64,000 bases of DNA, from the NCBI GenBank assembly GCA_038046765.1, contig JBBSVN010000005.1, positions 64,001-128,000 on the forward strand, written 5' to 3'. A model generated the notes under the pieces. The model did not search any database. It had not been told where the DNA came from and saw only the letters and a list, made by a program, of their open reading frames with translations. Both the position numbers and the translations under genes were made by a program. Source of the DNA: Candidatus Micrarchaeota archaeon. Lineage in GTDB: Archaea > Micrarchaeota > Micrarchaeia > Anstonellales > Bilamarchaeaceae. This document shows, one piece after another, positions 21,499 to 44,620 of this stretch (its first letter is position 1; each line of letters begins with the position of its first letter).

Positions 21499-21652
21499 GG
21501 GCCTGTAGCTCAGTCTGGATCAGAGCGGCACCGTCCTAAGAGTTCTGTGTCATGTGTTTTACGTTTTGTTCGTTATTCGTTCAAGACGCTAAACTGAAAA
21601 CACAAAACTCGCATGTAGGTGTAGGCCATGAGTTCAAATCTCATCTGGCTCG
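21499..21652 (+). tRNA. tRNA-Arg(CCT) with a 78-nt intron at 37/38 (21539-21616)
   Basis: Acceptor GGGCCTG/CTGGCTC (one T-T mismatch), D stem GCTC/GAGC, anticodon stem GCACC/GGTGT, T arm ATGAG-TTCAAAT-CTCAT; spliced loop GTCCTAA. Confidence 0.85.
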
Positions 21653-21722
21653 TATATTTTTCTTTTTTCTTTTTTTAGTTCTAGCCACAGCTTTATAATC
21701 CTTATTTTCTTTCTTATTAAGC

Positions 21723-22283
21723 ATGACAAAGAAATTCGTTCTTGATACTTCGCTTTTTGTAAACCCTCACGCACGCGGACACTTTGGAAAAACTCCTGAC
21801 TTGGCTGTTAAAGGATTCTTGAAAGCTGCAAAGAAGAAGAATGCAGAATTTTACATGCCACCAAGTGTATTTAAGGAATTAAAAAATTTTCTTAAATCTA
21901 AAACTGCCGATGAATTAGAATTGTTTTTGAAGAATAAAGCACCTAATATTTATGCTACTTACTTGCCAGCTGCAGTACTTTATGATTTTATCGAAGATAT
22001 GCGAAATCGACTGAACAAAGGATTAAGATTAGCCGAAGACTATGCTCAAGATAATCACCCAGATAATGCTGCAAAACTTGGGAAATTAAGGGAAAAATAC
22101 AGAGAAGCAGTTCGTGCTGGCTTAGTTGATAGCAAGGAAGACTTTGAACTTATTCTCTTATCAAAAGAAATAGATGCTCTTTTAGTTTCTAGTGATGAAG
22201 GCGTAATAAAATTTGCAACTAATATTGGGTGCGAATGTTTGAATGCAAGCAAATTAAGCGCGATGTTAAAGAAGTTAAGATAA
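21723..22283 (+). CDS. HARP, protein-only RNase P (Aq_880 homolog; 'RNA ligase partner' PIN family)
   Basis: FVLDTSLF, FYMPPSVFKEL, RLNKGLRLAE, LREKYREAVRAGLVDSKEDFELILL, SSDEG. Confidence 0.92.
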   Translation: MTKKFVLDTSLFVNPHARGHFGKTPDLAVKGFLKAAKKKNAEFYMPPSVFKELKNFLKSKTADELELFLKNKAPNIYATYLPAAVLYDFIEDMRNRLNKGLRLAEDYAQDNHPDNAAKLGKLREKYREAVRAGLVDSKEDFELILLSKEIDALLVSSDEGVIKFATNIGCECLNASKLSAMLKKLR

Positions 22284-22304
22284 AATAAACTGTGATTCAA
22301 ACAT

Positions 22305-23063
22305 ATGTCTAGAAAAACCAAAATCGCACAAAGTTTTGACAAAATCAGCCGAACTTACGAAGATGTTCGGCCTACTTATCCTGATGTTGTTATCAAAAAG
22401 ATTCTCTCTTTTTCAAAGATCCCAAAAAATGGTAAAATTGTTGAAGTTGGCTGCGGACCAGGTATAGCTACAATTCCATTTGCAAAAAAAGGATACAATA
22501 TCTCTGCCATAGATCCTGGTAAAAATCTCCTTTCTATTGCTAAAGAAAAAACCCGTAAATTTTCAAATGTTTCTTATATTTTAAGTTCATTTGAAGATGC
22601 TAAACTTCCAATTAATACTTTCGATCTTTTAATTTCTGGTACTGCCTTTCATTGGGTTAATCAGAAAACAGGATATAAAAAAGCTGGCGAATTGCTAAAG
22701 AAAGGCGGAACAATCGCGCTTTTCTGGCTTGCTAATAACTATAAACGAACTGACTTTATTCCTGGTTTATCCGCAGTTTTTAAGAAATACTCTAAAAATA
22801 AAAAAATCAAGCAAAAACCCTATGAAAAAGAATTTAAACGCATAGCGCGGTCAGGTCTTTTCGGAAAAGTTCACCGGTTCATTTATAATCAAAGAATCAA
22901 ATACTCTAAGGAAGATTACATTAAACTTGTAAGTACTTTTGGCTGGATAAATGTACATCCTAAAAAACCAGAATTTCTTAAAGACCTTAGTAATTTACTT
23001 GGAAAGAGAAAGTATATTTTAGTTCCGTATTCTACTATTCTTTTTATTGCGAGAAGAAAATAA
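22305..23063 (+). CDS. Class I SAM-dependent methyltransferase
   Basis: YEDVRPTYP, EVGCGPG, AFHWV. Confidence 0.9.
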   Translation: MSRKTKIAQSFDKISRTYEDVRPTYPDVVIKKILSFSKIPKNGKIVEVGCGPGIATIPFAKKGYNISAIDPGKNLLSIAKEKTRKFSNVSYILSSFEDAKLPINTFDLLISGTAFHWVNQKTGYKKAGELLKKGGTIALFWLANNYKRTDFIPGLSAVFKKYSKNKKIKQKPYEKEFKRIARSGLFGKVHRFIYNQRIKYSKEDYIKLVSTFGWINVHPKKPEFLKDLSNLLGKRKYILVPYSTILFIARRK

Positions 23064-23064
23064 A

Positions 23065-24147
23065 TTAATCCTCAATCCCCTTCCCGCTTAAAGCCTCCTT
23101 TATTTTATGGGTGCTTTTCTTGTAGATTTTTCTAAACTTAATTTTTGTTTTTCCATTTTCTGCTTTGGTTCGGCTCACTTCATCAATTTTTATTTCCTTG
23201 CTCATGTGCCTATGGATCCAGTCCCATATTTTTAAGTCTTTAATGATGATTTCATAATCGTCGTAAATTTGTTTGTCGTTTTCGACTTCCGTTATTGCCT
23301 TTGTCAATTTCTCATAAAAAGCTATCCCAAGTTCTTTTGCAAATTTTTCTTTATTTAGTTCAAACTCCCGAATAAATATCGCACTTCTAAGAACTCTTTG
23401 AACATAAAACCCAAGCGGCATATCAAATAAGCTATGCGATGACCCTGCAATATCTTCTATATCTGCAAAAGGATTGACATATTTTACGGCTTCCTTACGA
23501 TCTTCGCTCTTAAATATTATCCCCTCCTTTCTCTGTTTCATTATTGATAGTGCGATTTCTCTTATTTTCTTTAAATCAGAAATAGCAAACTTGCCAAAAC
23601 TAGGTGCCTCTTCTATTTTATATTTTTTTAGTAACGATTGCCTTTCTTCCGGAGAAATATAATTGCCGTTTCCAGTATCAACATCAAAAACAAATATCTT
23701 AACATCAAATCCCTTAGTCGGTCTAGTATATGGGGTGTTTCCAACCATTTCCGCGCATAATACATAATCTGGAAAATCAGAAAAGAATTTAGGAGTTATT
23801 AATTCGCGCGCTTTCTCACTTGCAAAGTAATCAAGGAATCCGCCACGAGAAAATGCGTAAACATTACCATTAATCTTTGCGATTCGAAGATTATATCCGT
23901 CTATCTTCTCTTCAATGTAAAAATAAGACGCAGTTATGTTCCTTTCTAATCCCTTCTTTAGTGTAAATATCCTTTTAATGTGGGGAAAACCAAAAATAAT
24001 TCGCTCGTTAATAACAATTGTCCCACGTGGAATTCCTCTAAAACCTTCCCGAAAACCAGAATAAATTAGTTCTTCTTTTCGATCAATTAGTTTGCCTCTT
24101 TTACGGGCTTCGGATAGTAATTGATCTGTCATTTCTAGTTTTGGCAT
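23065..24147 (-). CDS. rnl: ATP-dependent RNA ligase, archaeal Rnl3 (Pab1020/MthRnl) family
   Basis: GFPHIKRI, motif I EEKIDGYNLR, SRGG, CAEMVG, FVFD, KEGIIFK, VKY, C-terminal dimerisation domain. Confidence 0.92.
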   Translation of the reverse strand: MPKLEMTDQLLSEARKRGKLIDRKEELIYSGFREGFRGIPRGTIVINERIIFGFPHIKRIFTLKKGLERNITASYFYIEEKIDGYNLRIAKINGNVYAFSRGGFLDYFASEKARELITPKFFSDFPDYVLCAEMVGNTPYTRPTKGFDVKIFVFDVDTGNGNYISPEERQSLLKKYKIEEAPSFGKFAISDLKKIREIALSIMKQRKEGIIFKSEDRKEAVKYVNPFADIEDIAGSSHSLFDMPLGFYVQRVLRSAIFIREFELNKEKFAKELGIAFYEKLTKAITEVENDKQIYDDYEIIIKDLKIWDWIHRHMSKEIKIDEVSRTKAENGKTKIKFRKIYKKSTHKIKEALSGKGIED

Positions 24148-24191
24148 AAAATAAACAAGTAAATGAATATTATAAATATACTCTAAGTACG

Positions 24192-25973
24192 CTAAGCCAC
24201 CTTAGCTTCCTTATTCTCATTAAGCATTTCCTTTACAATTATTGCATAAGCTGGTCTTGATAATAAGAATCCTAAAACAGCTCCTAGAATTGTCGACGTA
24301 GCAAAACCGATTAATTCAGTTATTCCAGAGAATAATAATGGCATCATCGCAACAATCGCAACAACTATATTTGTTTTAATTATCTCAAAAGCTGAAGCTA
24401 TTTTAGATTCAATCGATCCTCCATCTTTTTTCCTTATTTCATCAGTAATTACAATCTGCGCGTCAACACCAACACCAATAGCAGCTATAATTCCAGCTAC
24501 TCCTGCTAAATCGATGTTAAATGGCGAACCTCCTAAAATAGATAATAAAATTATAAGTTCGCTAATACTTACTCCAACTATTGGTAAAATCATTTTAAGG
24601 CTTCTATACCTAAGCGAAATAAAAATTCCGATTGCGATTAATGAAGCTGCGATACCAAGTATACTTATTTGTAAGAATTCTGCACCTAGTGTTGCAGGTA
24701 TTGTTGTTTTACTTCCAAGAGATATTTGAACTGGTAATGAACCTCCTTTTAATATACTTTCAATAAAACGTGCCTGCTCAAGAGCCAGATTTGCCTTATT
24801 TGTATTTGCACTTAACTGTGTTGTTGGGACGCTTCCGCTGATACCTACTGAATTTCCTGATGGTGGTAATCCCTTTGTTAGTTCTTCTCCTAAAACTGGC
24901 GATGTTAACAACCCTACGGCGGACCATTTTTCTATAGATATGCTTTTATCAATTGGATTATAATTAAACGTCGGTGTTATGTTTTCCTCTGCAATTTCTT
25001 TAACAATAAATCCTTTTTGTTTTAGGTAATCCTTTACTTGTAAGGACGCTTCTGAAGAAATGTATGCTTTTGTTGCGTTGGTTTTTTGAGTTATATTTGT
25101 TTTATTTTGTAAAATTGTTTCTTCAAAATAAAGTTCTATGTTGTCACTATCTGTTTTAAGTGTATTCTTAGCTGCATTTATTGATTCGTAATCATTTAAC
25201 TGGCTATTTGTACCCGTTGAAGAAATTGCATTTGCTGCCGCCTCTGCTGCGCTTGTAAGTTTGTCTCTGTTTATAACAATTATTGCATCTGTTGGTCTAT
25301 CTAAAAACATGTATACTGGGAATTTTGGTTTATTTTTAGCAGTACTGGCAAATTTCTTTGCGCCTTCGTTGGTCATTGTAAAACCAACTTCCCAATCTCT
25401 GCCGGGGGAACTTCCTGGTACTTTTATCCTGATTGTCTGTGTGTATATATCTTCTGAAGTTAAAGCTGTTTTACCATCTATTACTGCAAGAAAAACTCCT
25501 TGTTGTGAAATCGCTTTTTCTATTGCACTTATTTGTTCATCGTTTGTATTTGCCAGTTCTACGTTTATTTCTGTATCTCCTATTGATTTGACTTTTACTT
25601 CGCTTAATCCAAGAACCGATGCTCTGCTTTTTATCGTGTCTATCATTTTATTCATTGTTTCTGCATCAACTTTCTTTTCCAGTATAATTGGTATTTTGGT
25701 ACCACCGCTAAAATCAATTCCAAAATGAAGTCCGTTAAATGCGAGGTTAAACATTGCCAGTAAAACAATCGCAGCCATTCCGAACATTCGTAGTTTAGTG
25801 TCCTTGTAAATTATTGCCATTCCTCCAAAAAGTATGAGTGCCGCAGCAAGTGTCATTCCTGCGAATTTTGAATAACCTGCGATTAAGAATATAAATATTA
25901 AAAATAATGCCCCTAAGAAAGCCATGCTTCGGTCTAGTTTTAACTGGAATTTTGGTCCTTGTTGTTCGTTCAT
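24192..25973 (-). CDS. secD: Protein translocase subunit SecD
   Basis: GIDFSGGT, LKGGSLP, IPATLG, GVGVDAQIVITDE. Confidence 0.92.
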   Translation of the reverse strand: MNEQQGPKFQLKLDRSMAFLGALFLIFIFLIAGYSKFAGMTLAAALILFGGMAIIYKDTKLRMFGMAAIVLLAMFNLAFNGLHFGIDFSGGTKIPIILEKKVDAETMNKMIDTIKSRASVLGLSEVKVKSIGDTEINVELANTNDEQISAIEKAISQQGVFLAVIDGKTALTSEDIYTQTIRIKVPGSSPGRDWEVGFTMTNEGAKKFASTAKNKPKFPVYMFLDRPTDAIIVINRDKLTSAAEAAANAISSTGTNSQLNDYESINAAKNTLKTDSDNIELYFEETILQNKTNITQKTNATKAYISSEASLQVKDYLKQKGFIVKEIAEENITPTFNYNPIDKSISIEKWSAVGLLTSPVLGEELTKGLPPSGNSVGISGSVPTTQLSANTNKANLALEQARFIESILKGGSLPVQISLGSKTTIPATLGAEFLQISILGIAASLIAIGIFISLRYRSLKMILPIVGVSISELIILLSILGGSPFNIDLAGVAGIIAAIGVGVDAQIVITDEIRKKDGGSIESKIASAFEIIKTNIVVAIVAMMPLLFSGITELIGFATSTILGAVLGFLLSRPAYAIIVKEMLNENKEAKVA

Positions 25974-27061
25974 TTTTCCACCGGAGTTTTCTTTGGTTCT
26001 TTTGATTCCACATACATTAAAAGGATTACCGCGTTAATACCCCACGTAGCAAACAAATCTCCAACTAACCCTACTAATGCAACTGCAGATATTTCGTAAT
26101 ATGTTGATATTCTGGTATAAAGCGAAATTATGAAAAGTACTGCAAATGCAATTATTGCAGCGATACTCATTGTTGCTCCTGTCTTAAACGCATCAAACGC
26201 CTTTTCTCTTGGGTCTCCTTGTCTTTTTAACATACGCATTGTAAGTAAAATGTCTGTGTCTAAAGAGAATCCTGCTAGCATTAATAATGCAGCTAAGGTT
26301 GGAAGAGTAAATGGTATTCCTAATAATCCCATTCCGCCTAGCGCAAAAGTTACATCTGCTGCTGCTCCGATTATTACTGCGAGACTCGGGACAAATGTCC
26401 TAAAGAATATGAATACGAAAATTATGCTTACTATTGCTGAATACAATACTGTCTGTTCTGCTTTTTCTACAAATTTTCCCCGTAATAATGGAGAAACTGT
26501 ATGTACGCTGATTGAAGTGTATTTTACGTATTTTTGTATTGGACCAGATATTGACTGCTGGTAGTTATCATAAACTTTAGTATATGCTGCACTTACCTGT
26601 TTATCGATGCTGTTTAATCCTTCATCTTCTGTTATCGTTTTTTGGATTCTCGCAAGCGTTAACATCTGATTGGCTAGTTTTATCATTTCTGGTTTATCTG
26701 TTGTTGCGTTACTTAAATTACCAAAACTTTCTTTTTGAACCTGTGCATCAAGAAGTTTTGTAAAATTTGTTTTTATGCTTTCAGCATTAACTAAGTCCAT
26801 ACTCTGGCCTAATTCTATTTCAACGGCATATCCGGTTGGTAAAGCGTATGTAATAACTGTTCCTTGCAAACCTTCTTTTTCTAAATTTGCTTGTAACTGC
26901 TTAGAGTCAAGGTTTTGGTCTACAGTTAATTTAATTAACGTACCTCCCCGAAAATCAACTCCCGGTTTAATACTTTGCGCAAAGTATAAACTTAAGATTA
27001 GTAAAATTATTGGTATTATTACCAATAATTTATAGTTGCCCTTGTATATATTAGGAATCAT
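25970..27061 (-). CDS. secF: Protein translocase subunit SecF
   Basis: GVDFRGGT, GFSLDTDILLT; overlaps the secD start. Confidence 0.92.
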   Translation of the reverse strand: MIPNIYKGNYKLLVIIPIILLILSLYFAQSIKPGVDFRGGTLIKLTVDQNLDSKQLQANLEKEGLQGTVITYALPTGYAVEIELGQSMDLVNAESIKTNFTKLLDAQVQKESFGNLSNATTDKPEMIKLANQMLTLARIQKTITEDEGLNSIDKQVSAAYTKVYDNYQQSISGPIQKYVKYTSISVHTVSPLLRGKFVEKAEQTVLYSAIVSIIFVFIFFRTFVPSLAVIIGAAADVTFALGGMGLLGIPFTLPTLAALLMLAGFSLDTDILLTMRMLKRQGDPREKAFDAFKTGATMSIAAIIAFAVLFIISLYTRISTYYEISAVALVGLVGDLFATWGINAVILLMYVESKEPKKTPVEK

Positions 27062-27236
27062 AAAATCAAATACTTCTCTAAGTAGATATTTTTGTTGTCA
27101 AATAATATAATAGCTATTATTTTTAATTGTTAGGTCTAAATATATTATACTGGCAGGTAGCTAGTGGCTCTTAGCTAGTAGCTTTATAATTAAATTGATT
27201 TGTTAACCTTATAATAATGGGTTTATAAAAAAATAA

Positions 27237-27327
27237 CGACTGACGCGACCGTTATTTTATACTAAGTGTCGCGTCCTACAAGTCTGTAATAAGAAGAGCC
27301 TCTTTTTTCTTAGTAAAGAGTATGTAG
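27237..27327 (+). repeat. tRNA-upstream double-hairpin element, copy 2 (before tRNA-Cys)
   Basis: CGACT-GACGCGAC..GTCGCGTC-CTACAAGTCTGTAA-TAAGAA..TTCTTA..TGTAG; TTTATAAA box at 27222-27229. Confidence 0.8.
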
Positions 27328-27342
27328 TAAGTTTATACTAAC

Positions 27343-27544
27343 GCCGGGTTGGCAGATCGGCTATGCCGCCGCCTGCAAACTCCTTTAATTGCTTAGGGTC
27401 AAACCTAGCTTCTAAAGTTGATGTTTTAAAGGCACTTATGTGATACTTTGTATTACCGTAAGATTCCGCTTTTATGAGGTAAGCGCAAGTTTACCAATGA
27501 TATTTAGAAAGCGGCTTAGACAGGTTCAACTCCTGTACCCGGCT
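27343..27544 (+). tRNA. tRNA-Cys(GCA) with a 131-nt intron at 37/38 (27379-27509)
   Basis: Acceptor GCCGGGT/ACCCGGC with T discriminator, anticodon stem GCCGC/GCGGC, T arm ACAGG-TTCAACT-CCTGT; relaxed BHB. Confidence 0.92.
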
Positions 27545-27690
27545 TAATTTATTTTTATAATTGATCGTTTAGCGTTTTCAAGTTTCGAGTTTTGTGTTTA
27601 GTATTTTGTTGATTAATCTAGATACCGGGTAGAATTAAAAGCTTTTGCACACTAATTTTAATTATTAACAACTACTTAAGAGCTGATTTT

Positions 27691-28466
27691 ATGTCAAGAA
27701 AATTACGCGTAGCGATATTAGGATGCGAACCAAAAGAGCAACTCTACTTCCTCATAGGGGAAAACAATGTTTTTCAATGGCGATTCTAGCAGATAACCTT
27801 AGCGAAATGTCTTCTAAAGTTGGTTTTAAAATTCAGCCAACAATTTACTGGGTCGCAAACGGAGCACAATTTCCTAGAATAATTTCAAATACATTTGATG
27901 CAGTTGTAACTACGGGTTCACAGTTAAACTTAGATAAAGAAAGCATACCTCTAAATCCATGGTATCAAAACCTCTTTGAGTTTATTCGTTCAGTAAGGCA
28001 TCAAAGAATTCCAATGCTCGGAATATGTTTTGGACATCAGGCAATTGCAGCCGCATTTGGAGTTGAAGTAATTACCAATCCGATTAAACCACAAACAGAA
28101 ATCGGCTTTGCACCAGTTACTTTGACTATAGAAGGAAGAGGAAGCGGATTACTCTCTGGTCTGCCAAGAGATCATTTTGATGCGCTTTTCTCACATTCTT
28201 ATTGTATTACAACTGTTCCACACGGAGCACAAACTTTAGCCATAGGACATGGCAAAATGATTCATGCTTTTAGTTTAGATCTTTTGTATGGAGTTCAGTT
28301 CCATCCGGAAATTTCACCTGATGTCATAAAACATATTGCAGAATTGCGGGCAGAAAAACTTGCGAAACAGGGAATAAAACGAGTAAAAACTGAAATCGAA
28401 AGAAGAGTAGATCATACTGTTCTAGAAAACTTTGTTAAGATGGCTGCGAGAATGCGGGAATTATAA
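27691..28466 (+). CDS. Class I glutamine amidotransferase-like protein, probably frameshifted near the 5' end
   Basis: GICFGHQ and GVQFHPE in frame 27723-28466; a typical N-terminus MSRKLRVAILGCEP starts at ATG 27691 in another frame that stops at 27789. Confidence 0.75.
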
Positions 28467-28470
28467 TTTT

Positions 28471-29097
28471 TCATTTCTTCCAAACCCAAAAGTGTCCTTT
28501 GTGATGCAAACGTTTTCCTAAGGTAGTTTCGCTATAATGTAGTAACTTTAAGTTCGCGTAGTTCGTTTCTATTTCTTCTTTATTTCGATAATACATAATA
28601 TTTCCAAACTTTCCAGTTGCACTAGATTTGCTCTGTGAATGTTCGTCCTTATCAGAATAGCAAACGAGTGCAAGAATTCCGTCCTTATCTAAAAGAGAAA
28701 TTTCTTTTTTTGTGTAATGTAAAATATCATCTGGAGTAATATGGTGCATAATTGAATAATCAAAAATAAAATCAAACTTCTTTTCTTCAAACGAATATTC
28801 TAAGAAATCTCCAGTAATAAAATTTATTTTTACTTCCGCAACCTTCGCTTTCTCTTTTGCAATTTTAATTGCTTTTTCTGAAATATCTATCGCAGTAACA
28901 TCAAAACCAAGCTTTGCTAAATAAATAGAATAATTACCTGAACCGCATGCAATATCCAAAATTCGCGAACCGGTTACAAACTTATTTTTTAAAATAAAAT
29001 CTAATTCTACGGGGTGTTTTTCTATTTCCCAAGGAATATCTTCAAGTTTTTTAGAATACATTTTTTGCCAATAATCTGCTTTATCTGCATTAACCAT
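28471..29097 (-). CDS. Class I SAM-dependent methyltransferase (TPMT/TehB-like)
   Basis: IPWE, LDIACGSG, AIDIS, FDFIFD. Confidence 0.88.
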   Translation of the reverse strand: MVNADKADYWQKMYSKKLEDIPWEIEKHPVELDFILKNKFVTGSRILDIACGSGNYSIYLAKLGFDVTAIDISEKAIKIAKEKAKVAEVKINFITGDFLEYSFEEKKFDFIFDYSIMHHITPDDILHYTKKEISLLDKDGILALVCYSDKDEHSQSKSSATGKFGNIMYYRNKEEIETNYANLKLLHYSETTLGKRLHHKGHFWVWKK

Positions 29098-29150
29098 AAA
29101 TAATAATTAAATACTAACGTTTATTAAGAAGTTCCGTTATATACTATATT

Positions 29151-29465: not shown

Positions 29466-29466
29466 T

Positions 29467-30120: not shown

Positions 30121-30137
30121 AATAATTCACCTTCAAT

Positions 30138-36715: not shown

Positions 36716-36835
36716 ACTTAAAAACTGTTCAATTAACATTATTAATAACAATCCTAGTAATAATTATAATGTTTATAACTAAAATAATGATTTAATGATT
36801 ATAACTAAAAGTTATATCTAAAAGGTGTATTATAT

Positions 36836-37075
36836 ATGAAAAACGGTAAATGTGCTATTTGTCAAGCAATGATAAAAGGATTAGAATCATCAGGAGCAAA
36901 ATCAAAGAAAACTATTTCGCGTACATTCGGTGCAAATTTATGTACTGGTTGTAGCAGGTTTGCACATGTTGAAGCGACAAGGGTAAAAAATAAATCGAAA
37001 AACATGGAATCGGTTGATTTCTCTTATAGAAAATACGTACAAAACATTATAGATTCTAAAAAATTCGCGCAATAG
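36836..37075 (+). CDS. rpl34e: 50S ribosomal protein L34e (short N-terminus)
   Basis: KCAICQ...SRTFGANLCTGC zinc motif; gene context. Confidence 0.85.
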   Translation: MKNGKCAICQAMIKGLESSGAKSKKTISRTFGANLCTGCSRFAHVEATRVKNKSKNMESVDFSYRKYVQNIIDSKKFAQ

Positions 37076-37085
37076 GTGCTAGGTT

Positions 37086-37610: not shown

Positions 37611-37693
37611 TAAATAATCGAAAAATAAATCTTAATAAAAAATTTTAATTAAAAATTAGTATTTGAAAATTTCAAATTAAAGGTGAAATTATT

Positions 37694-37864
37694 ATGGCAG
37701 CAATAAATGTAGGAAGCGTTTGCGTAATCATCGCAGGAAGAAGATCTGGAGAACAAGTAACTATTAGCAGTATTGCTGATTCAAATTGCGTTCTAACTAA
37801 GGACAAAAAAGGAAAAGAAAGAAAATATTCGGTATTACACCTTGAACCCGTTTCAAGAAACTAG
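37694..37864 (+). CDS. rpl14e: 50S ribosomal protein L14e (56 aa; absent from the ORF track)
   Basis: MAAINVGSVCVIIAGRRSGEQVTI...HLEP; AGGTGA SD; lies between cmk and cbf5. Confidence 0.88.
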   Translation: MAAINVGSVCVIIAGRRSGEQVTISSIADSNCVLTKDKKGKERKYSVLHLEPVSRN

Positions 37865-37873
37865 ATCTTGGAT

Positions 37874-38746
37874 ATGGCAATTAAGGATTTGCTAAATAAT
37901 TCTGTTGTTATTCTAAACAAACCCCCTAAACTTAGCTCGCATGAAGTTAGTGTAATTACTAAACAAATTCTTGGGGTTTCTAAAAGCGGGCATGCTGGAA
38001 CTTTGGATCCGCAAGTTAGCGGGGTCTTAATTGTAGCTTTAGGCAGGGCTACAAAACTTTTACAGTTTATAACTAAAGCTGATAAAACTTATGTTTGCAT
38101 TATTAAATTCAAGAATATTCTTGCTAAAACGGAAATTCTATCTCTTTTTGAAAAGTTTACTGGAACTATTACCCAGACTCCTCCTAAGGAATCTGCAGTA
38201 AGAAAAGTTGCTCGCAAGCGTCACGTATTTTATATTAAATTTTTAGAACAAAGCAAAGAAAATCCAAGGCTGGTTCTTTTTGAAACAAAAGTTGAAGCTG
38301 GTACATACATTCGAACACTCTGTGATGACATTGGAAAAATTTGCGGTGGTGCAAGGATGGAAGAATTACGCAGAGTAAAATCTGGTTCTGTTGGTGAGAC
38401 TAAGGCTATAACTTTGCAACAACTCAAACATATTTATCAAATGTATTTGCAGACTCAGGAAGACAAACAACTTTTAAAAGTTATAAAACCACCAGAATTT
38501 TACATTGATTTTCCAAAAGTTATGATTAAAAATTCCGCTTTAAAAAGTATTTCAAATGGAGCGCAAATAATGTTTCCCGCAATTAAAGACGCGCAAATGG
38601 GAGTTAAGAAAAATAATCTTGTTTATTTATGCGATGAGCAAAGCAAGTTTTTTGGTGTTGGTACTTCTCTTTTTGACTATGCCGAACTACCAAAAAAACA
38701 AGGTATAAAAGGACTTGCAGTAAATTTAGAGAGGGTTCATATATGA
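37874..38746 (+). CDS. cbf5: Pseudouridine synthase Cbf5/TruB
   Basis: GHAGTLDPQVSGVL, QTPPKESAV, AGTYIRTLC, PUA domain. Confidence 0.95.
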   Translation: MAIKDLLNNSVVILNKPPKLSSHEVSVITKQILGVSKSGHAGTLDPQVSGVLIVALGRATKLLQFITKADKTYVCIIKFKNILAKTEILSLFEKFTGTITQTPPKESAVRKVARKRHVFYIKFLEQSKENPRLVLFETKVEAGTYIRTLCDDIGKICGGARMEELRRVKSGSVGETKAITLQQLKHIYQMYLQTQEDKQLLKVIKPPEFYIDFPKVMIKNSALKSISNGAQIMFPAIKDAQMGVKKNNLVYLCDEQSKFFGVGTSLFDYAELPKKQGIKGLAVNLERVHI

Positions 38747-40353
38747 AATCTAGCGATTTTTTTATAAGATGCCTTGAAAACGAAGATGTCAAATATATAT
38801 TTGGTCTTCCAGGAGAAGAAGTTGAAGATGTTTTGTTTTCAATAAAAAGCTCCAACATTGAATTTGTATTAACACGCCATGAGCAAGGAGCTGCTTTTAT
38901 GGCTGACTTATATGGTCGTCTTACGGGTAAAGCTGGTGTGTGCTTATCTACACTAGGCCCTGGTGCGACTAATCTAATTACAGGGGTAGCTGATGCGAAT
39001 TTAGATCATGCGCCATTAGTTGCGATTACCGGACAAGGTAGTGTAAACCGATTGCATAAAGAATCGCACCAGATTATCGACATTGTTGAAATGTTCAAGC
39101 CAGTTACAAAATGGAACACACGAATAACTAGCGGGCAGGTTGTTGGTGAAATAGTTCGTAAGGCTTTTAAAATTGCGCAAATGGAAAAGCCAGGAGCTAC
39201 GCATATCGAAATTTCAGAGGACATTGCAGCCTCGCAAATTCCGGACAAAGAACCTATTTCAAAAACCACGCTTAGAAGACCTTATCCAGATCATAAGGCA
39301 TTATCCGATGCGGTTACACTCATAAATCAGTGCTCTAATCCAGTAATTTTAGCTGGTAATGGCGCAATTCGAAAACTTGCTTCAAAACAATTATCTATGC
39401 TTGTAGAAAAAACAGGCATTCCTGTAATTTCAACTTTCATGGGAAAAGGCGCAGTATCCGACCTAAGTGCTCATTCGCTTTTTGCATTTGGGTTAGGTAC
39501 AAAAAAATACGTTGCTGATATTTTTGCTCAAAGCGATTTAGTTATTTGTGTTGGGTATGATGTTGCAGAACTAGATCCCTCTAAGTGGAATCCTAAAAAA
39601 GATAAAAAGATAATTCACATTGATTTTACGCCTAGCGAAGTTTATGAAAATTATATTCCTAATGCTGAAATTGTCGCAGATATTTCGAACACTCTCTGGG
39701 CGCTTAATACTCAGATTATTAGAAATTTTGAGTCTGTTGTTGCAAAGAAAATTCGGGCGAATATTTTATCTGATCAGGCCGTTTCTTCAAAATCCAACTT
39801 ATTTCCAATAAGTCCGCAGAAACTTATTAGCGACCTGCGTTCTGTCTTAAAGGAAGATGATATTGTTATTTCCGATGTTGGCGCGCATAAAATGTGGATT
39901 GGAGCTAACTATCCAACATATAAGCCCAATACTGTTATTGTCTCAAATGGTTTTGCTTCAATGGGCATCGCACTTCCAGGTGCAATCGGAGCAAAACTAG
40001 CTAAACCTGATAAAACTGTTGTCGCAGTAACAGGAGATGGTGGATTTATCATGAACTGCCAGGAATTAGAAACAGCTAAACGGCTTAAAATTCCTTTTGT
40101 TTGCGTTGTTTTAAACGATACTAAATATTCGTTAATTGAAGCTAAACAAGTAAGAAATAAGGGAGAAGGATTTGCGATTGATTTTGAAAATGTTGATATA
40201 AGTTTACTTGCAAAAAGTTTTGGGGTTAAATCGATAAAAATTGATAAAACGAACGAACTAAAAGACGCGCTTAAGCAGGCAATCGATATGAATACTGTTT
40301 GCTTAGTCGATGTCCCAACTGATGCGAAGGAGAATTTGAAGTTGTTTGAATGA
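38743..40353 (+). CDS. ilvB: Acetolactate synthase large subunit-like TPP enzyme
   Basis: FGLPGEE, RHEQGAAFMAD, GPGATN, GDGGF. Confidence 0.88.
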   Translation: MKSSDFFIRCLENEDVKYIFGLPGEEVEDVLFSIKSSNIEFVLTRHEQGAAFMADLYGRLTGKAGVCLSTLGPGATNLITGVADANLDHAPLVAITGQGSVNRLHKESHQIIDIVEMFKPVTKWNTRITSGQVVGEIVRKAFKIAQMEKPGATHIEISEDIAASQIPDKEPISKTTLRRPYPDHKALSDAVTLINQCSNPVILAGNGAIRKLASKQLSMLVEKTGIPVISTFMGKGAVSDLSAHSLFAFGLGTKKYVADIFAQSDLVICVGYDVAELDPSKWNPKKDKKIIHIDFTPSEVYENYIPNAEIVADISNTLWALNTQIIRNFESVVAKKIRANILSDQAVSSKSNLFPISPQKLISDLRSVLKEDDIVISDVGAHKMWIGANYPTYKPNTVIVSNGFASMGIALPGAIGAKLAKPDKTVVAVTGDGGFIMNCQELETAKRLKIPFVCVVLNDTKYSLIEAKQVRNKGEGFAIDFENVDISLLAKSFGVKSIKIDKTNELKDALKQAIDMNTVCLVDVPTDAKENLKLFE

Positions 40354-40366
40354 TTAAAAAATCGAA

Positions 40367-41458
40367 TTAGCGATTAAATATCCTAGATAAGAAATTAGGA
40401 ACTTCTTTTATAAGCTCAAATAAAGAAGCCGTTGCAACACCTGCTAAAACAGCCGTAAACCAGTAAACTAACTGCAATTTCCTATTTTTATTATCTATTA
40501 GTTCTTGATTTTCTGAATTTAATTTAAATACAAAAGATTTTTCGTGATCGGGGTCTTGAGCGTATACATTGTAAAAGTTTAGTCCATTATCTGAATAAGA
40601 ATCAAAACGTAAAATGTTTAAGGGGCGGTTCGGATCCCCTAGTTCTGGCACAAAACAACTAAATCTAGAATTGCAATTGTATTTGTTTGTTGCTACGATA
40701 AAATTAAAGTTGTATAATTCTTTTACAGCATCTAATCTAATAATAAATTTGCCGTTTGGAGTTATACTTGTTCTAGTCTGAATCAAAAGAGTTTTTCCTT
40801 CTAATGCTCGTTTAGGACACATTGTTTCAAATTCGACAGACTTATTTGTGATACACTCATTTATTTTCGTATAAACATTATTTTTGTTTACATCACTTTC
40901 AATTAAGAATGCATTTTCTACTATGCTGTTGATATCCTTAGAATTAATTTTAATCGTACCAGTTGAGTTAATTAAATCTGTTATTGTTATATTTGTAATA
41001 TTATCTTCAGGGTATGTAGAAAAAGTTAAATTATTTATATAAAATTCATCACTTCCATTCGTTTTAGGGTATATTGAAATGTCATAAAAAGTATCCTTAT
41101 AATCATCAGTTAATTTCATCTTTTCAATAGCAGAAAGTTCCCCAAACTGATTTAATATCACAAATAAAGATATAGTAAAAATAATGCATAATATTCCAGT
41201 CCATAAAATTCCCTTATGTATGCTACCTTTTCCAGAATTATTTGCTTTGCTGTTATTTTGCTGATTTTCATCTGGTTTAAAATAATAATTATGAAATCTA
41301 CCTGTTTTTTCATAATAAATTTTATTATTTAAAACTAACTCATTCAGGGTCTTTTCTATTTTTTCTGGAGATACCTCCAAACTATTTGCTATCTGATTAC
41401 GACTAACTAGTGGTTTTTGATTTTTCAACAAATTTAGTATTTTATCTTCTAATTCCAC
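40367..41458 (-). CDS. Membrane protein with N-terminal wHTH, TM, Asn-rich extracellular domain and C-terminal TM
   Basis: ILNLLK...SRNQIANSLEVS...LNELV wHTH; two hydrophobic segments. Confidence 0.65.
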   Translation of the reverse strand: MELEDKILNLLKNQKPLVSRNQIANSLEVSPEKIEKTLNELVLNNKIYYEKTGRFHNYYFKPDENQQNNSKANNSGKGSIHKGILWTGILCIIFTISLFVILNQFGELSAIEKMKLTDDYKDTFYDISIYPKTNGSDEFYINNLTFSTYPEDNITNITITDLINSTGTIKINSKDINSIVENAFLIESDVNKNNVYTKINECITNKSVEFETMCPKRALEGKTLLIQTRTSITPNGKFIIRLDAVKELYNFNFIVATNKYNCNSRFSCFVPELGDPNRPLNILRFDSYSDNGLNFYNVYAQDPDHEKSFVFKLNSENQELIDNKNRKLQLVYWFTAVLAGVATASLFELIKEVPNFLSRIFNR

Positions 41459-41570
41459 ATTATCCCTTTCTATTTTTCTTACTTTGATAATGTCTTATTG
41501 AATATAAAAATCTGTCCTTTGCATTGTTGTCAACCCTAACCTTAATTAATCTAATATTCTAGTTTAATCT

Positions 41571-42542
41571 ATGCAACTAAAAAATCCCCTTCTGCTTTAC
41601 CGTGGAGAAGAATTTAATGCTAATTTTTACTATCAAACAGGAGTAGATATTGACCATAGTTTTTTCTTACTTGATGGTAAGACAAAAATACTTCTAACTC
41701 CTAAGATGAACTATGAATTTGCTAAGAAAACCTTTAAAGGCAAAGTAATTATTTATTCAAACCCCATAAAAGAAATAATAGAACTAATAAAATCAAAATC
41801 ACTCTGCTTAGATTTCTCATCCTTATCTGCTTCACTATTTATTAAACTCCAAGAAAATTTCAAACTTGAAAACGTAAGCGAAGAGCTTCTAAAAGAGCGG
41901 ATGGTTAAGCGAGCGGATGAAGTAGCTAAAACAAAAAAAGCAGTACATGCCACCAAAGAAATTCTAAATTCAATCGACTTCTCAAAACATAAAATCGAAC
42001 TAGATATTAAAAAATTCTTACTAAAAGAAACGCTTGAGCAAGGTTTTGAACAAGCATTTAACCCGATTGTTGCGACTGATAAAAACAGTTCTTTTCCTCA
42101 TTACACTCCAGCGAATGTCAAACTCGGTTCAATTATTCTAATTGATTACGGGGTTAAATACGAAAAATATTGCGCTGACCTAACCAGGTGTTTTTTCCTT
42201 GGTAATGGTAAAAAAACAAAAGAAGCCAAGGCTAATTATGAAAAACTTCAAGAAATTCTTCATGATCTAGTTGATAATCTTTCGAATTTCAAAGATGGCA
42301 CAGGTTTAGCTAAGGCAAGTGAATCTTTATTTGAAAAATACAAATTCCCGAAACTAATTCATAGTATCGGTCATGGTGTTGGTTTAGATGTTCATGAGTT
42401 TCCAAGGCTAAGCGAAAAGTTTAATGATAATTTAACTAATTCCATTCTCGCAATCGAGCCAGCAGTTTATTTTAAGGGTAAGTACGGTCTTCGCTTCGAA
42501 GAAACTATTTATTTTGATGGTAAAAAAGCTAAGATTTTGTAA
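41571..42542 (+). CDS. M24 family Xaa-Pro peptidase
   Basis: PHY, IDYG, ADLTR, HSIGHGVGLDVHE, IEPAVY, GLRFEE. Confidence 0.92.
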   Translation: MQLKNPLLLYRGEEFNANFYYQTGVDIDHSFFLLDGKTKILLTPKMNYEFAKKTFKGKVIIYSNPIKEIIELIKSKSLCLDFSSLSASLFIKLQENFKLENVSEELLKERMVKRADEVAKTKKAVHATKEILNSIDFSKHKIELDIKKFLLKETLEQGFEQAFNPIVATDKNSSFPHYTPANVKLGSIILIDYGVKYEKYCADLTRCFFLGNGKKTKEAKANYEKLQEILHDLVDNLSNFKDGTGLAKASESLFEKYKFPKLIHSIGHGVGLDVHEFPRLSEKFNDNLTNSILAIEPAVYFKGKYGLRFEETIYFDGKKAKIL

Positions 42543-42598
42543 ATATTTTTAAGTCGGTTTTACTTAGATATTTAAAATGAATTTACTTAGTCTTAGTT

Positions 42599-44443
42599 AT
42601 GCCTAATTCTTTACATTCTAACCATTCCAGTTCTTCCACTAAAATTGCTTCAAGAACTTATTTTCAGTCTATTGGATATGTCGAACAACGCATTACTATT
42701 AGTGATAAGTATGGTACCGAAAGAACTCTTTATGGGTGGGTTCCAAAAGGCATAAGCCAAACTGAAGCTATAAAACGAGTAATCGAACAAAACGGTGGAA
42801 TGTGCGAAATAAAACGAGGAGGTTATGATCCAATTAATCGAATCGATCTATCTAACTTTACATACATTACCAAAATTGCCTTTGATGATGGTTTTACTGT
42901 TGCTGACTGGTTACAAATTAGAAATCAATATAATGAATTTGCTATTGGTCAAATAGGTAATACTACTTTCTGGGAAAATGGAGATACTTTAAGAGCTCAT
43001 GGAAATAATCAAATTCGTATTACTGAAGATTATGGATTTACAAAAGAATTGCCAGACACATCTGATTTAATCGGCCGTAAAAAAAGAGGTACATGTGGTG
43101 GCTGTGGTGGACCAATTACAAACGAAGCACTTAGCGCATTAGATCTAGCGAGTAAATATGCTCAAAAAAGGGATACTTATAATTTTGACCCAAATACTGG
43201 CGCAATAAGGCTCGTTAGAAATTCTCAAACATCGGAAAATGAAACTGGTTTTCGCCATATTCTTAACGATTTTTTTAATCAAGTAAAAACTTATTTTAAC
43301 GATACACCTAGTAGCGTTAATTTATCTGCTAGTTCTTACATGATCCAGTTATCGACCAATTCTCAGTTTACCTATCTTGGCGCTGGCGATTTTGATTCTT
43401 CATCTGCTTTTGCAATAACTCCCCATGCGTCAACTGTTCATAAAAAATTAGCTTCTACTTATTATGCAACTATTAATGGAAATGACACTTCATCTACTAC
43501 CTATAACGGCGAAAATACGCTCGCTTCTAACATAGCATTAACTCAAAATACTACTTATAATGAAAAATCAGTTATCTCACCCGTTTCTGATAACTCGTTT
43601 ATCTTTTCTTCATTTGTTTCTAAATGTTCTTGTTGTACAATTAATTTAACTTTAGATTATTTATCTACAAAAACAAAAATTTCTCAAGGGTTAAATACCG
43701 TTGCGGTTTTAGCATCTATTCGTAAAGAAGTTGTAAATTCACCTAAAAACGCATTATCTCAAATTTCCTTAGTTCCGTTGCCAAGAATAGATTCATTTAT
43801 TCTATCTAAACCAAATGACCGAGTCTGTAGAGTAAAACCAGTCCTTGTTATTTCTTCTCAAAAAAGAACTGCAAATGATAATTCAACTACTTCAAAATCC
43901 GCTTCTAAAGAAATTCCAAAGATAAAAACTAAACAAATAGAAAAACCAACAACAAAACCAAAACAAGTTACAAAGGAAACTGCCGTTCAAATCGTTAAAC
44001 CGAAACTAATTTCTGTTGATAAATTAAATAAATCTAAAGTACTTGCAGGTAGGAACAAACAAATACCTAGAAAAGTTCTACCTTCAATAGCATACTTAAA
44101 ACCCAATAGTAAACTAGTAAAATCAAATTTAAATTCAAATAAGGTGAAACTTGAAAACGAAAATATTCAAAATATTAAAACAAAAGCTAAGCCTCGAGCG
44201 AGCGCTGTAAAACAAAAAATTCCTTCGATTAATTTACAAGAATCAATTCGTGCTACTAGAAAATCTACGCAAGCTAAAGTTTCAAAAATTAATATTGCAC
44301 CAAAGAAAGAATTAGACACAGATATGTTTGCCCCAGTTTTAGCTAAACAAATTGCATCAATGAACAAATCTTATCTAATCAAATGGATCGCAAACGAACG
44401 AAGTAAAAGAAATAAAACTAGCTCTAGACGGAAAGCTGCTTAA
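42599..44443 (+). CDS. Hypothetical protein with a CGGCGG motif and long Ser/Thr- then Lys-rich low-complexity tail
   Basis: 614-aa ORF. Confidence 0.65.
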   Translation: MPNSLHSNHSSSSTKIASRTYFQSIGYVEQRITISDKYGTERTLYGWVPKGISQTEAIKRVIEQNGGMCEIKRGGYDPINRIDLSNFTYITKIAFDDGFTVADWLQIRNQYNEFAIGQIGNTTFWENGDTLRAHGNNQIRITEDYGFTKELPDTSDLIGRKKRGTCGGCGGPITNEALSALDLASKYAQKRDTYNFDPNTGAIRLVRNSQTSENETGFRHILNDFFNQVKTYFNDTPSSVNLSASSYMIQLSTNSQFTYLGAGDFDSSSAFAITPHASTVHKKLASTYYATINGNDTSSTTYNGENTLASNIALTQNTTYNEKSVISPVSDNSFIFSSFVSKCSCCTINLTLDYLSTKTKISQGLNTVAVLASIRKEVVNSPKNALSQISLVPLPRIDSFILSKPNDRVCRVKPVLVISSQKRTANDNSTTSKSASKEIPKIKTKQIEKPTTKPKQVTKETAVQIVKPKLISVDKLNKSKVLAGRNKQIPRKVLPSIAYLKPNSKLVKSNLNSNKVKLENENIQNIKTKAKPRASAVKQKIPSINLQESIRATRKSTQAKVSKINIAPKKELDTDMFAPVLAKQIASMNKSYLIKWIANERSKRNKTSSRRKAA

Positions 44444-44465
44444 CTAATATACTAAAATAAAAATA

Positions 44466-44620
44466 TGGCGGGCTCAGAGGGAAATTCCGAGTTTTGTGTT
44501 TTCAGTTTAGCGTCTTGAACGAATAACGAACAAAACGTAAAACACATGACACAGAACTCTTTTGAACCCTCGGCGGACGGATTAAGAGTCCGTTACTCTA
44601 CCAAGCTGAGCTATGAGCCC
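44466..44620 (-). tRNA. tRNA-Lys(CTT), CCA encoded, with a 78-nt T-loop (59/60) intron (44483-44560)
   Basis: Acceptor GGGCTCA/TGAGCCC-G-CCA, anticodon arm ACGGA-CTCTTAA-TCCGT, T stem GAGGG/CCCTC; relaxed BHB. Confidence 0.95.

What the first reader, a model, noticed from the sequence alone, without database searches (positions are those of the whole stretch)
21539..44560. The same 78-nt intron sits in two different tRNAs at two different positions, with only its exon-pairing end changed
Seen: the tRNA-Arg(CCT) intron (21539-21616, +, position 37/38) and the tRNA-Lys(CTT) intron (44483-44560, -, T-loop 59/60) are both 78 nt. They are identical over the first 73 nt (AGAGTTCTGTG...AAAACTCG) and differ at 3 of the last 5 (CATGT vs GAATT). 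Those bases form the BHB central helix and 3' bulge, and each version pairs 3 of 4 with its own exon (GTCC:GCAT; TTCA:GGAA). The exons are unrelated, so this is not a gene duplication. Known: tRNA intron transposition has been inferred in Thermoproteales, and DPANN ARMAN lineages carry non-canonical introns, but the mechanism is unresolved. Inference: a very recent jump of a non-coding intron, with the junction either templated by the target or quickly selected.
Basis: partly seen in the sequence, partly recalled or inferred. Interest (0 to 1): 0.9.

Follow-up and report, generated by a model that had tools for sequence, protein, structure and literature searches.

The report
Shared hairpin intron in two tRNAs
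Two unrelated tRNA genes of a tiny groundwater archaeon carry the same 73-base intron core at two different positions, the freshest copy of a hairpin intron family that fills most tRNA genes of this lineage, a phenomenon known so far mainly from another archaeal order.

Summary
The introns of tRNA-Arg(CCT) (21539-21616, +, 37/38) and tRNA-Lys(CTT) (44483-44560, -, 59/60) are both 78 nt, identical over 73 nt and different at 3 of the last 5. Independent contigs support the assembly.

They are bulge-helix-bulge introns. Each is a long hairpin set in a 7x7 internal loop on the exon stem. The genome encodes an epsilon2-type splicing endonuclease and RtcB.

The pair is not isolated:
- At least 31 of 37 tRNA genes found are interrupted, 20 of them in the T-loop.
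- A covariance model of this hairpin hits 32 of 61 related genomes, at T-loop, anticodon-loop and D-arm sites.
- Arg(CCT) carries a 37/38 intron of different sequence in four related genera.
- Lys(CTT) is uninterrupted in two related genera.

The "selected junction" idea holds in one direction only. The Lys tail would also fit the Arg exon (3/4), but the Arg tail fits Lys 1/4.

The best reading is a very recent DNA-level copy of the hairpin core. It probably overwrote the interior of a resident intron and left the locus-specific 3' adaptor in place. Direction and mechanism remain open. This is a new member of the kind described for Thermoproteales intron transposition.

The parts
21499..21538 (+). 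tRNA-Arg(CCT) exon 1 (positions 1-37; the last 4+2 bases GTCC+TA are the BHB central-helix strand and 5' bulge)
21539..21616 (+). 78-nt BHB intron at 37/38. Bases 21539-21611 are the 73-nt hairpin core shared with Lys(CTT)
   Evidence: BHB 5/3/5 of 5/4/5; hairpin -24.4 kcal/mol, z -4.2
21612..21616 (+). locus-specific 3' adaptor CATGT. With the preceding G it gives GCAT, which pairs with GTCC, plus bulge GT
21617..21652 (+). tRNA-Arg(CCT) exon 2 (38-73)
44561..44620 (-). tRNA-Lys(CTT) exon 1 (positions 1-59; TTCA+AA are the BHB central-helix strand and 5' bulge)
44483..44560 (-). 78-nt BHB intron in the T-loop at 59/60. Bases 44560-44488 are the shared 73-nt core; 44487-44483 are the adaptor GAATT
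44466..44482 (-). tRNA-Lys(CTT) exon 2 (60-73, 44482-44469) followed by a genomically encoded CCA (44468-44466)
   Evidence: CCA encoded in 2 of 35 genes
21253..21443 (+). tRNA-Ser(CGA) just upstream of Arg(CCT). It has a 53-nt 37/38 intron and a 53-nt T-loop insert (about 21377-21429) that is a weaker relative of the same family

Best explanation
Both elements are archaeal bulge-helix-bulge (BHB) tRNA introns. Each has two parts: a 73-nt hairpin core and a 5-6-nt locus-specific 3' adaptor that pairs with four loop bases of the host exon.

Splicing (inferred). The pre-tRNA folds as a cloverleaf with the hairpin projecting from the anticodon loop (Arg) or the T-loop (Lys). The 7x7 internal loop between exon stem and hairpin forms the bulge(3)-helix(4)-bulge(3). 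The epsilon2-type endonuclease encoded in the genome cuts both bulges, and RtcB joins the exons.

Family. The core belongs to a hairpin-intron family that has colonised tRNA genes across this family of small (DPANN-like, Micrarchaeota-like) archaea. It sits mostly in the T-loop at 59/60, but also at 37/38 and in D-arms.

Origin of the identity. The exact 74-nt identity between Arg(CCT) and Lys(CTT) records a very recent DNA-level copy between the two genes.

Most likely route (inferred, not shown). The core was pasted over the interior of an intron already resident at the recipient site. This would be patch-wise gene conversion or template switching that used the conserved hairpin ends AGAGTT...CTCG as homology. 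Each locus then kept its own exon-matched adaptor, and no point mutations were needed.
For: Shown:
- Identity and boundaries.
- BHB geometry ranks first at both loci.
- Both precursors fold as a cloverleaf plus hairpin with a 7x7 loop.
- The hairpin is stable. It is 92.7% paired across 6 family members from 3 genera, against 28-49% when the partner is slid.
- A 407-aa EndA matches the solved epsilon2 enzyme 4fz2 end to end, E 2.4e-129. RtcB is present.
- In print, the epsilon2 enzyme cut a 37/38 and a 59/60 intron in vitro (PMC3239211, passages read).

Family:
- Own-genome relatives sit in the T-loops of Arg(TCT) (77%), Pro(GGG) and a three-intron tRNA on C4.
- Census: 35 parsed tRNA genes with 50 inserts, 20 of them T-loop inserts.
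- 22 insert pairs scored 28 or more, above the best (24) of 1000 shuffles.
- Nearly all of those pairs are T-loop with T-loop. Arg(CCT) is the only strong cross-position member.
- The covariance model hits 32 of 61 genomes and 19 of 23 genera.
- By eye, the 27 best loci divide into about 8 T-loop, 5 at 37/38, 4 D-arm, 2 before the T-stem and 8 non-tRNA or unclear.

Adaptors: 16 of 20 T-loop inserts pair at least 3/4 with their own exon, against 13% for internal 4-mers.

For an overwrite:
- Arg(CCT) has a 37/38 intron of other sequence in G009, G004, G013 and G027. G004's intron begins AGAGTT and contains CTCG, and the adaptors there are GGAT and GGAC against GCAT here.
- The Lys tail would have worked in Arg, so mutation from it is unexplained.
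- Other intron pairs in this genome are mosaics of blocks of roughly 90% identity next to diverged or inserted parts.
Against: - No allele was seen that shows the earlier state of either locus. All contigs laid were the same population at 99% or more. No closer relative was found in species genomes or metagenome contigs; all 11 pattern hits were chance.
- Lys(CTT) is uninterrupted in its orthologs in G009 (syntenic) and G016. A resident family intron in Lys before the event is therefore assumed, not shown. If Lys was empty, the event was a true insertion from Arg, and the tail had to change.
- Gene conversion normally leaves pre-existing differences near tract ends, yet identity here runs to the very first intron base.
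- G004's Arg intron is not itself a hit of the family model.
- Splicing was not observed. No RNA run was laid, and the one RNA run listed held 0.07 of the words.
Confidence: 0.55

Rival explanations
1. True transposition into an empty site. The whole intron of Arg(CCT) was copied into the previously uninterrupted T-loop of Lys(CTT), and two or three tail substitutions were then fixed quickly because the Arg tail cannot form the BHB there.
For: - Lys(CTT) orthologs in G009 and G016 have no T-loop intron, and G009 is syntenic.
- The Arg(CCT) 37/38 slot is old.
- The Arg tail pairs 1/4 with TTCA, and forcing the BHB costs 9.0 against 2.9 kcal/mol, so change was needed.
- tRNA-Lys(TTT) is intact. 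By wobble (inference) it could cover AAG while splicing was poor.
Against: - It needs three substitutions in 5 nt and none in 73 nt. One of them (the bulge G to T) is not needed for pairing.
- All other own-genome relatives of the core are T-loop residents.
- The nearest relative, the Arg(TCT) T-loop intron, already has the tail TGAATT against Lys GGAATT. The Lys tail therefore looks inherited rather than newly evolved.
Confidence: 0.25
2. Whole-intron insertion or replacement from the Lys(CTT) T-loop into Arg(CCT) 37/38, followed by drift or selection of the tail from GGAATT to GCATGT.
For: - The family lives in T-loops in this genome.
- GGAA pairs with U33-C34-C35 of Arg(CCT) and would place the cut exactly at 37/38.
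- In silico, the Lys tail in Arg opens a competing 5-bp helix CCUAA/UUAGG that lowers the anticodon-stem probability from 0.84 to 0.56. That gives a possible reason to change it.
Against: - The real Arg tail forms the BHB less well than the Lys tail would (5.8 versus 1.9 kcal/mol).
- Three changes in the tail with none in the core are unlikely.
- The Arg tail resembles the adaptors of orthologous Arg(CCT) introns (GGAT, GGAC), which suggests it is native to the locus.
Confidence: 0.08
3. RNA-level mobility. The excised intron is re-ligated into another tRNA at a site chosen by adaptor-loop pairing, a reversal of EndA/RtcB splicing. The product is reverse-transcribed and recombined into the gene.
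For: - RtcB and EndA are present.
- Two reverse transcriptases exist in the genome.
- The GGAA:UCC pairing predicts the 37/38 site.
Against: - Both RTs sit in diversity-generating retroelement cassettes with their own template and variable repeats, which is a specialised use.
- A reverse-spliced intron would carry its whole tail, which is not what is seen.
- The tail differences are not adenine-specific.
- No such reaction is known (my knowledge).
Confidence: 0.05
4. The identity is not recent. Two old copies are kept identical by purifying selection on a functional intron RNA, or the identity is an assembly artefact.
For: The hairpin structure is conserved across genera.
Against: - Other family members are 77% identical or less.
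- No Rfam family matches, including at E up to 5.
- A double-depth 74-nt unitig and independent bridging contigs rule out a collapse artefact.
Confidence: 0.04

Closest known systems
[quoted passage not shown] 2010, Mol Biol Evol). I could not read the paper; it is known to me through the reviews PMC4090602 and PMC4033280 (passages) and a 2026 preprint (section 2.5).
   Same: [quoted passage not shown]
- A BHB is required at the new junction.
- The mechanism is unknown and thought to act at the DNA level.
   Different: - The lineage differs: a small-genome DPANN-like archaeon with an epsilon2 endonuclease, not (alpha-beta)2.
- The pair here is 100% identical over the core, against families defined at more than 70-80% identity.
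- The architecture is explicitly modular (hairpin core plus locus-specific adaptor).
- One recipient slot was demonstrably already occupied in relatives.
Disrupted tRNA genes of ARMAN-2 (Micrarchaeum) and its epsilon2 EndA (PMC3239211, passages read; structure paper PMC3488258, abstract in search listing)
   Same: - The endonuclease type is the same (4fz2 match).
- Introns occur at 59/60 and 37/38.
[quoted passage not shown]
- Standard tRNA finders miss genes.
   Different: The passages I read describe intron positions and enzyme specificity. They do not describe shared intron sequences between genes. They mention transposition only for Thermoproteales.
[quoted passage not shown]
   Same: - Many introns per gene.
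- tRNA annotators miss them.
- Introns sit at BHB-competent sites.
   Different: There, copying between tRNA genes was tested and found rare: 1.5% of sequences fell in families of 80% identity or more that cross tRNA types. Here cross-gene families are common and one pair is identical.
Palindromic mobile repeats (MITE/PATE-like elements moved by IS200/IS605 Y1 transposases)
   Same: A short hairpin-forming repeat in many copies, some of them apparently outside tRNA genes in relatives.
   Different: - No Y1 transposase was found in this roughly 90% complete genome.
- There is no target-site duplication.
- The strong copies in this genome are all inside tRNA genes at splice-competent sites.

Membership tests
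Archaeal BHB (protein-spliced) tRNA intron | Bulge(3)-helix(4)-bulge(3) flanked by helices at the exon-intron junctions, in the one valid handedness | tested here: met
   Pairs found in the three helices A/B/C: 5/3/5 of a possible 5/4/5 at both loci, ranked first among all intervals. Both folds show a 7x7 internal loop between the exon stem and the intron hairpin. The central helix has one mismatch in each and is not in the MFE structure.
Archaeal BHB (protein-spliced) tRNA intron | Removing the intron yields a canonical cloverleaf tRNA | tested here: met
   aragorn, my own parser and Rfam tRNA for Arg.
Archaeal BHB (protein-spliced) tRNA intron | A cognate endonuclease able to cut non-canonical positions, and an RNA ligase | tested here: met
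   An epsilon2-type EndA, E 2.4e-129 to 4fz2 over residues 19-407. RtcB at 553 bits.
Archaeal BHB (protein-spliced) tRNA intron | The intron is actually excised at the predicted sites | not testable with these tools
   Only DNA contigs were laid. It needs RT-PCR, small-RNA sequencing or an in vitro cleavage assay.
Transposed tRNA intron family (Thermoproteales type) | More than 70% similar introns in evolutionarily distinct tRNA genes | tested here: met
   100% over 73 nt between Arg(CCT) and Lys(CTT), and 77% to Arg(TCT). 22 pairs scored above the shuffle maximum.
Transposed tRNA intron family (Thermoproteales type) | Members occupy different nucleotide positions of the tRNA | tested here: met
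   37/38 and 59/60 in this genome. T-loop, 37/38 and D-arm in relatives (contexts read by eye).
Transposed tRNA intron family (Thermoproteales type) | Gain at a previously intron-free site | tested here: inconclusive
   Lys(CTT) is intron-free in G009 and G016. Arg(CCT) is already interrupted in 4 related genera and intron-free only in G040. No same-genus genome is available.
IS200/IS605-type palindromic element (PATE/MITE) | A Y1 transposase in the genome and insertion next to a fixed target motif | tested here: not met
   PF01797 was not found (genome 89.7% complete). The 5' flanks GTCCTA and GTTCAA are only loosely alike.
Known structured RNA carried in an intron (C/D box sRNA, group I/II intron) | Match to a curated RNA family | tested here: not met
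   Rfam at gathering score and at E up to 5 gives only tRNA, plus one chance hit of 14.7 bits.

The most novel reading that the evidence does not exclude
The hairpin core is a self-contained mobile module whose landing site is chosen by base pairing between its 4-nt adaptor and a tRNA loop. The Lys-type adaptor GGAA pairs with U33-C34-C35 of tRNA-Arg(CCU) and would set the cut exactly at 37/38. tRNA introns in epsilon2-EndA archaea would then spread by an RNA-guided, splice-machinery-dependent route (reverse splicing plus a cellular RT), or by core swapping between resident introns. The identical Arg/Lys pair would be a natural before-and-after snapshot of that process.
Probability: 0.08. Interest if true: 0.9.

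Novelty: new member of a known kind. Interest (0 to 1): 0.5.

Why it matters
How archaeal tRNA introns are gained is an open question. Reviews call the mechanism unknown (PMC4090602), and a 2026 Asgard study found no general route.

This genome offers an unusually clean case. The core is letter-for-letter identical at two different tRNA positions. The two adaptors differ only where they touch the exon. The broad-specificity endonuclease type is known and already solved. Dozens of related copies in sister genera show the same core-plus-adaptor design.

That makes two things directly testable. One is whether the adaptor alone decides spliceability, using tail-swap cleavage assays with the epsilon2 enzyme. 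The other is whether spread is by insertion or by overwriting, using population alleles.

It also shows that standard tRNA finders see only 12-20 of at least 37 tRNA genes here.

Tried and rejected
- Wider collections. The pattern TTCAAGACNNNAAACTGAAAACA gave 4 hits in species genomes and 7 in metagenome contigs. All were chance hits in non-tRNA contexts, so they provide no closer relative and no empty allele.\n- Phage and plasmid collections gave no match to the intron.\n- Runs X4-X6 looked like relatives at about 95% by word share, but proved to be the same population at low depth. No ancestral state came from them.\n- No joints or alternative alleles were seen at the Arg locus in the contigs laid. 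Contigs drop rare variants, so this is not evidence of absence.\n- Tail-motif hits in relatives were partly oligo-T terminators on the opposite strand next to tRNA 3' ends. I did not count them.\n- A heptad or tandem-repeat nature of the hairpin arms: Tandem Repeats Finder found nothing at score 30.\n- Encoded CCA as a retro-copy mark: 2 of 35 genes, not informative.\n- Synteny of the Arg locus with relatives: no shared ORF within the 3-kb loci.\n- BHB-only intron prediction was too noisy for the relaxed introns, so I replaced it with T-arm and acceptor-stem anchors plus a cloverleaf parser. Several parses (scores 18-21) and anticodon calls remain uncertain.\n- About 9 expected tRNA species were not found.\n- Fujishima 2010 is not held.\n- I opened no supplements. 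Supplementary Table S2 and Figure S4 of PMC3239211 may list ARMAN-2 intron positions and sequences that bear on the claim that shared intron sequences were not reported there.
Full report
**Observation**

Reading both strands and aligning the loci confirms the finding. tRNA-Arg(CCT) at 21499-21652 (+) carries a 78-nt insert at 21539-21616 between positions 37 and 38. tRNA-Lys(CTT) at 44469-44620 (-) carries a 78-nt insert at 44483-44560 between T-loop positions 59 and 60.

The first 73 bases are identical. The last five are CATGT and GAATT. The exon base before each insert is A in both, so the identical run is 74 nt. A global alignment of the two mature tRNAs (76 and 74 nt) has 52 identical bases, with different anticodon and acceptor stems. 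That is ordinary tRNA likeness, not a duplicated gene.

A BLAST search of the whole 1.515-Mb, 20-contig genome finds only these two exact copies.

**Assembly**

One read-laying run was available, so I laid the Arg locus.
- In the probable source run the 74-nt unit forms its own unitig at depth 26.3, against about 11 for the flanks.
- Contigs on either side carry Arg-type or Lys-type flanks. This is what two exact copies per genome should give.
- A 157-nt contig from another study (X5, record 16) spans 21488-21644 with no difference, bridging Arg exon, intron and exon.
- A contig from a third study (X6) holds the core plus the Lys 3' flank.
- X4 shows one strain difference (C>T at 21511).

**What the elements are**

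Only one handedness of the bulge-helix-bulge is valid:
- exon bases -6..-3 pair with intron bases -6..-3;
- intron base 2 onward pairs with intron base -7 backward;
- exon base -7 backward pairs with 3'-exon base 2 onward.

Scored this way, both introns reach 5/3/5 of 5/4/5 pairs and rank first among all intervals at their loci.

Both precursors fold as a cloverleaf plus a long intron hairpin, separated from the exon stem by a symmetric 7x7 internal loop. That loop is exactly the space of bulge 3, helix 4, bulge 3. The Lys precursor has z -5.9 and the Arg precursor z -2.8. The core alone folds at -24.4 kcal/mol with z -4.2.

The central helix has one mismatch in each intron and is not part of the minimum-energy fold. 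The motif is therefore weak in its middle.

Rfam has no family for the intron, even at E up to 5.

The genome encodes a 407-aa endonuclease that matches the solved three-unit epsilon2 enzyme (4fz2) over residues 19-407 at E 2.4e-129. It also encodes a second, 175-aa alpha-like endonuclease homologue and RtcB.

From the enzyme type and the 0.8-1.6-Mb relatives, I infer a DPANN, Micrarchaeota-like archaeon. The runs are labelled groundwater. The organism's name was not available to me.

**The pair is part of a large family**

aragorn with intron search finds 12 tRNA genes. Rfam's tRNA model finds 10 above cut-off and 20 at E up to 10.

I anchored on T-arm plus acceptor stem and got 966 anchors. 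I spliced T-loop inserts and validated with aragorn, which gave 24 genes, 15 of them with a T-loop insert. My own cloverleaf parser, which tolerates introns, added 11 more genes.

| Census item | Count |
|---|---|
| tRNA genes parsed | 35 |
| Inserts in those genes | 50 |
| Genes with a T-loop (59/60) insert | 20 |
| Parsed genes with no insert | 4 |
| Intact genes seen only by aragorn | 2 |
| Total genes, of which interrupted | at least 37, 31 |

Several parses are uncertain, with scores of 18-21.

An all-against-all comparison of the 50 inserts gives 22 pairs scoring 28 or more. The best of 1000 shuffles scored 24.
- Arg(CCT)/Lys(CTT) tops the list at 146.
- The other pairs are almost all T-loop with T-loop between unrelated tRNAs. 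Examples are a Ser gene (anticodon call uncertain) with Ile(TAT) at 87 and Ser(GCT) with Glu(CTC) at 66.
- The Arg(CCT) intron is the only strong member that is not in a T-loop.

The nearest relative of the core is the T-loop intron of tRNA-Arg(TCT), with 58 of 78 alignment columns identical and the tail TGAATT.

An nhmmer profile adds Pro(GGG), a three-intron tRNA on C4, and, more weakly, tRNA-Ser(CGA) directly upstream of Arg(CCT) in the window.

**Relatives**

A covariance model was built from six members in three genera. Its 21 pairs are 92.7% paired, against 28-49% when the partner is slid. Compensatory changes are few, at 3 pairs.

The model hits 32 of 61 genomes and 19 of 23 genera of the same family. 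I read the context of the best hit in each of 27 loci by eye:

| Context | Loci |
|---|---|
| T-loop | about 8 |
| 37/38 (Thr CGT, Phe GAA, Asn GTT, Arg TCT, Ala) | 5 |
| D-arm | 4 |
| Just before the T-stem | 2 |
| No recognisable tRNA | 8 |

T-loop copies end in (T/G/C)GA(A/T)+NN, which is complementary to TTCA or TTCG. The 37/38 copies end in bases that fit their own anticodon loops. The design of core plus locus-specific adaptor is therefore general.

In this genome 16 of 20 T-loop inserts pair at least 3/4 with their exon, against 13% for internal 4-mers.

**State of the two sites in relatives**

- Arg(CCT) has a 37/38 intron in G009 (about 42 nt, unrelated sequence), G004 (about 43 nt, beginning AGAGTT and containing CTCG), G013 (about 100 nt) and G027. 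It has none in G040.
- The adaptors there read GGAT (G004) and GGAC (G013). GCAT here looks like the same locus-type adaptor.
- Lys(CTT) in G009 and G016 has an uninterrupted T-loop. The G009 locus shares a neighbouring gene with this one, at 74% identity over 187 aa.
- The Arg slot is therefore old and its content turns over. The Lys insert is lineage-specific.

**The junction**

| Exon | Tail | Central-helix pairs | Cost of forcing the BHB, kcal/mol |
|---|---|---|---|
| Arg (GTCC) | own, GCAT | 3/4 | 5.8 |
| Lys (TTCA) | own, GGAA | 3/4 | 2.9 |
| Arg (GTCC) | Lys, GGAA | 3/4 (three Watson-Crick pairs) | 1.9 |
| Lys (TTCA) | Arg, GCAT | 1/4 | 9.0 |

In Arg, the Lys tail also opens a competing CCUAA/UUAGG helix that lowers the anticodon-stem probability from 0.84 to 0.56.

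'Selected to pair' therefore explains the tail difference only if the move was from Arg to Lys. That route needs three substitutions in 5 nt, one of them in the bulge and not needed for pairing, with none in 73 nt.

The alternative needs no substitution. The core was pasted over the interior of an intron already present, and each locus kept its adaptor. Other intron pairs in this genome are mosaics of blocks at roughly 90% identity next to diverged or inserted parts, which fits patch-wise copying.

I rank the overwrite first at about 0.55 and true insertion from Arg to Lys second at about 0.25. No allele showing the earlier state was found:
- all 11 pattern hits in species genomes and metagenome contigs were chance;
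- phage and plasmid collections had no match;
- runs X4-X6 were the same population.

**Mechanism candidates**

No Y1 hairpin transposase was found (the genome is 89.7% complete). Two reverse transcriptases exist. Both sit in diversity-generating retroelement cassettes whose template and variable repeats differ only at template adenines. The tail differences are not adenine-specific. An RNA route is therefore possible but unsupported.

**Comparison with what is known**

[quoted passage not shown] I could not read Fujishima 2010. It is summarised in PMC4090602 and PMC4033280. The review calls the mechanism unknown and probably DNA-level, with the BHB limiting the possible targets.

A 2026 preprint measured 28.3% of Thermoproteales introns in cross-type families of at least 80% identity, against 1.5% in Asgard.

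My searches found no description of such families in DPANN or epsilon2-EndA lineages. The searches were 'tRNA intron'+DPANN+non-canonical with 2 papers, Micrarchaeota+tRNA+intron+'splicing endonuclease' with 1 paper, and 'intron transposition'+tRNA with 39 papers, 25 listed. I read listings only, apart from the papers named above.

Earlier unchecked notes of this scan report similar shared T-loop introns in other DPANN genomes, including one cross-position case and one 'overwritten' intron. They agree with this reading but are not independent evidence.

**Verdict**

The finding is real, well-formed and clean. It is a new member of a known kind rather than a new kind. Its value lies in the exact identity across two positions, which makes the adaptor rule and the insertion-versus-overwrite question directly testable.

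Noticed in passing
window 18848-18940, 21253-21443, 27343-27544, 52754-52875, 54879-55088: Five more interrupted tRNA genes lie in the window, mostly invisible to default tools. They are Gly(TCC) with a 22-nt D-loop intron, Ser(CGA) with 37/38 and T-loop introns, Cys(GCA) with a 131-nt intron, Gln(CTG) with D-arm and 20-nt T-loop introns, and Ala(CGC) with a 138-nt T-loop intron.
   Followed up: partly
L114 (G000:C4:10500-15000) and L115 (G000:C4:69000-73500): Two diversity-generating-retroelement-like cassettes. In each, the RT is split over two ORFs. An 84-87-nt template repeat and a variable repeat are 83-85% identical and differ only at template adenines. The variable repeat lies inside a 290- or 330-aa ORF with no Pfam hit.
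   Followed up: partly
L050:1456-1983 (-) = G000:C10: A second, 175-aa alpha-type tRNA endonuclease homologue sits beside the epsilon2 enzyme (best PDB match 1a79, E 1.4e-9). Its role in a genome that already has a three-unit enzyme is unclear.
   Followed up: partly
L096, L100, L101, L103, L104, L107, L109, L111 (relatives): Hits of the hairpin-intron model with no recognisable tRNA around them. Some appear to lie in or next to coding sequence. They could be free copies, introns of other genes, or unrecognised tRNA pieces.
   Followed up: no
window 21616-21649 (records 6, 11, 17): The same groundwater samples hold a second organism. Its tRNA-Arg(CCT) 3' exon matches with 4 differences, and its intron tail is that of relative G013.
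   Followed up: no
window 21511: Strain difference C>T in run X4, at position 13 of tRNA-Arg(CCT). It turns the C13:G22 pair into U:G.
   Followed up: no
G000:C2:~9716-9943 (+): A tRNA gene (acceptor GCCGAGA/TCTCGGC) with a 52-nt T-loop insert. A long family-like insert further 5', apparently in the anticodon region, was not resolved by my parser.
   Followed up: partly
window 44466-44468 (-): tRNA-Lys(CTT) has a genomically encoded CCA. Only 2 of 35 parsed tRNA genes do.
   Followed up: yes
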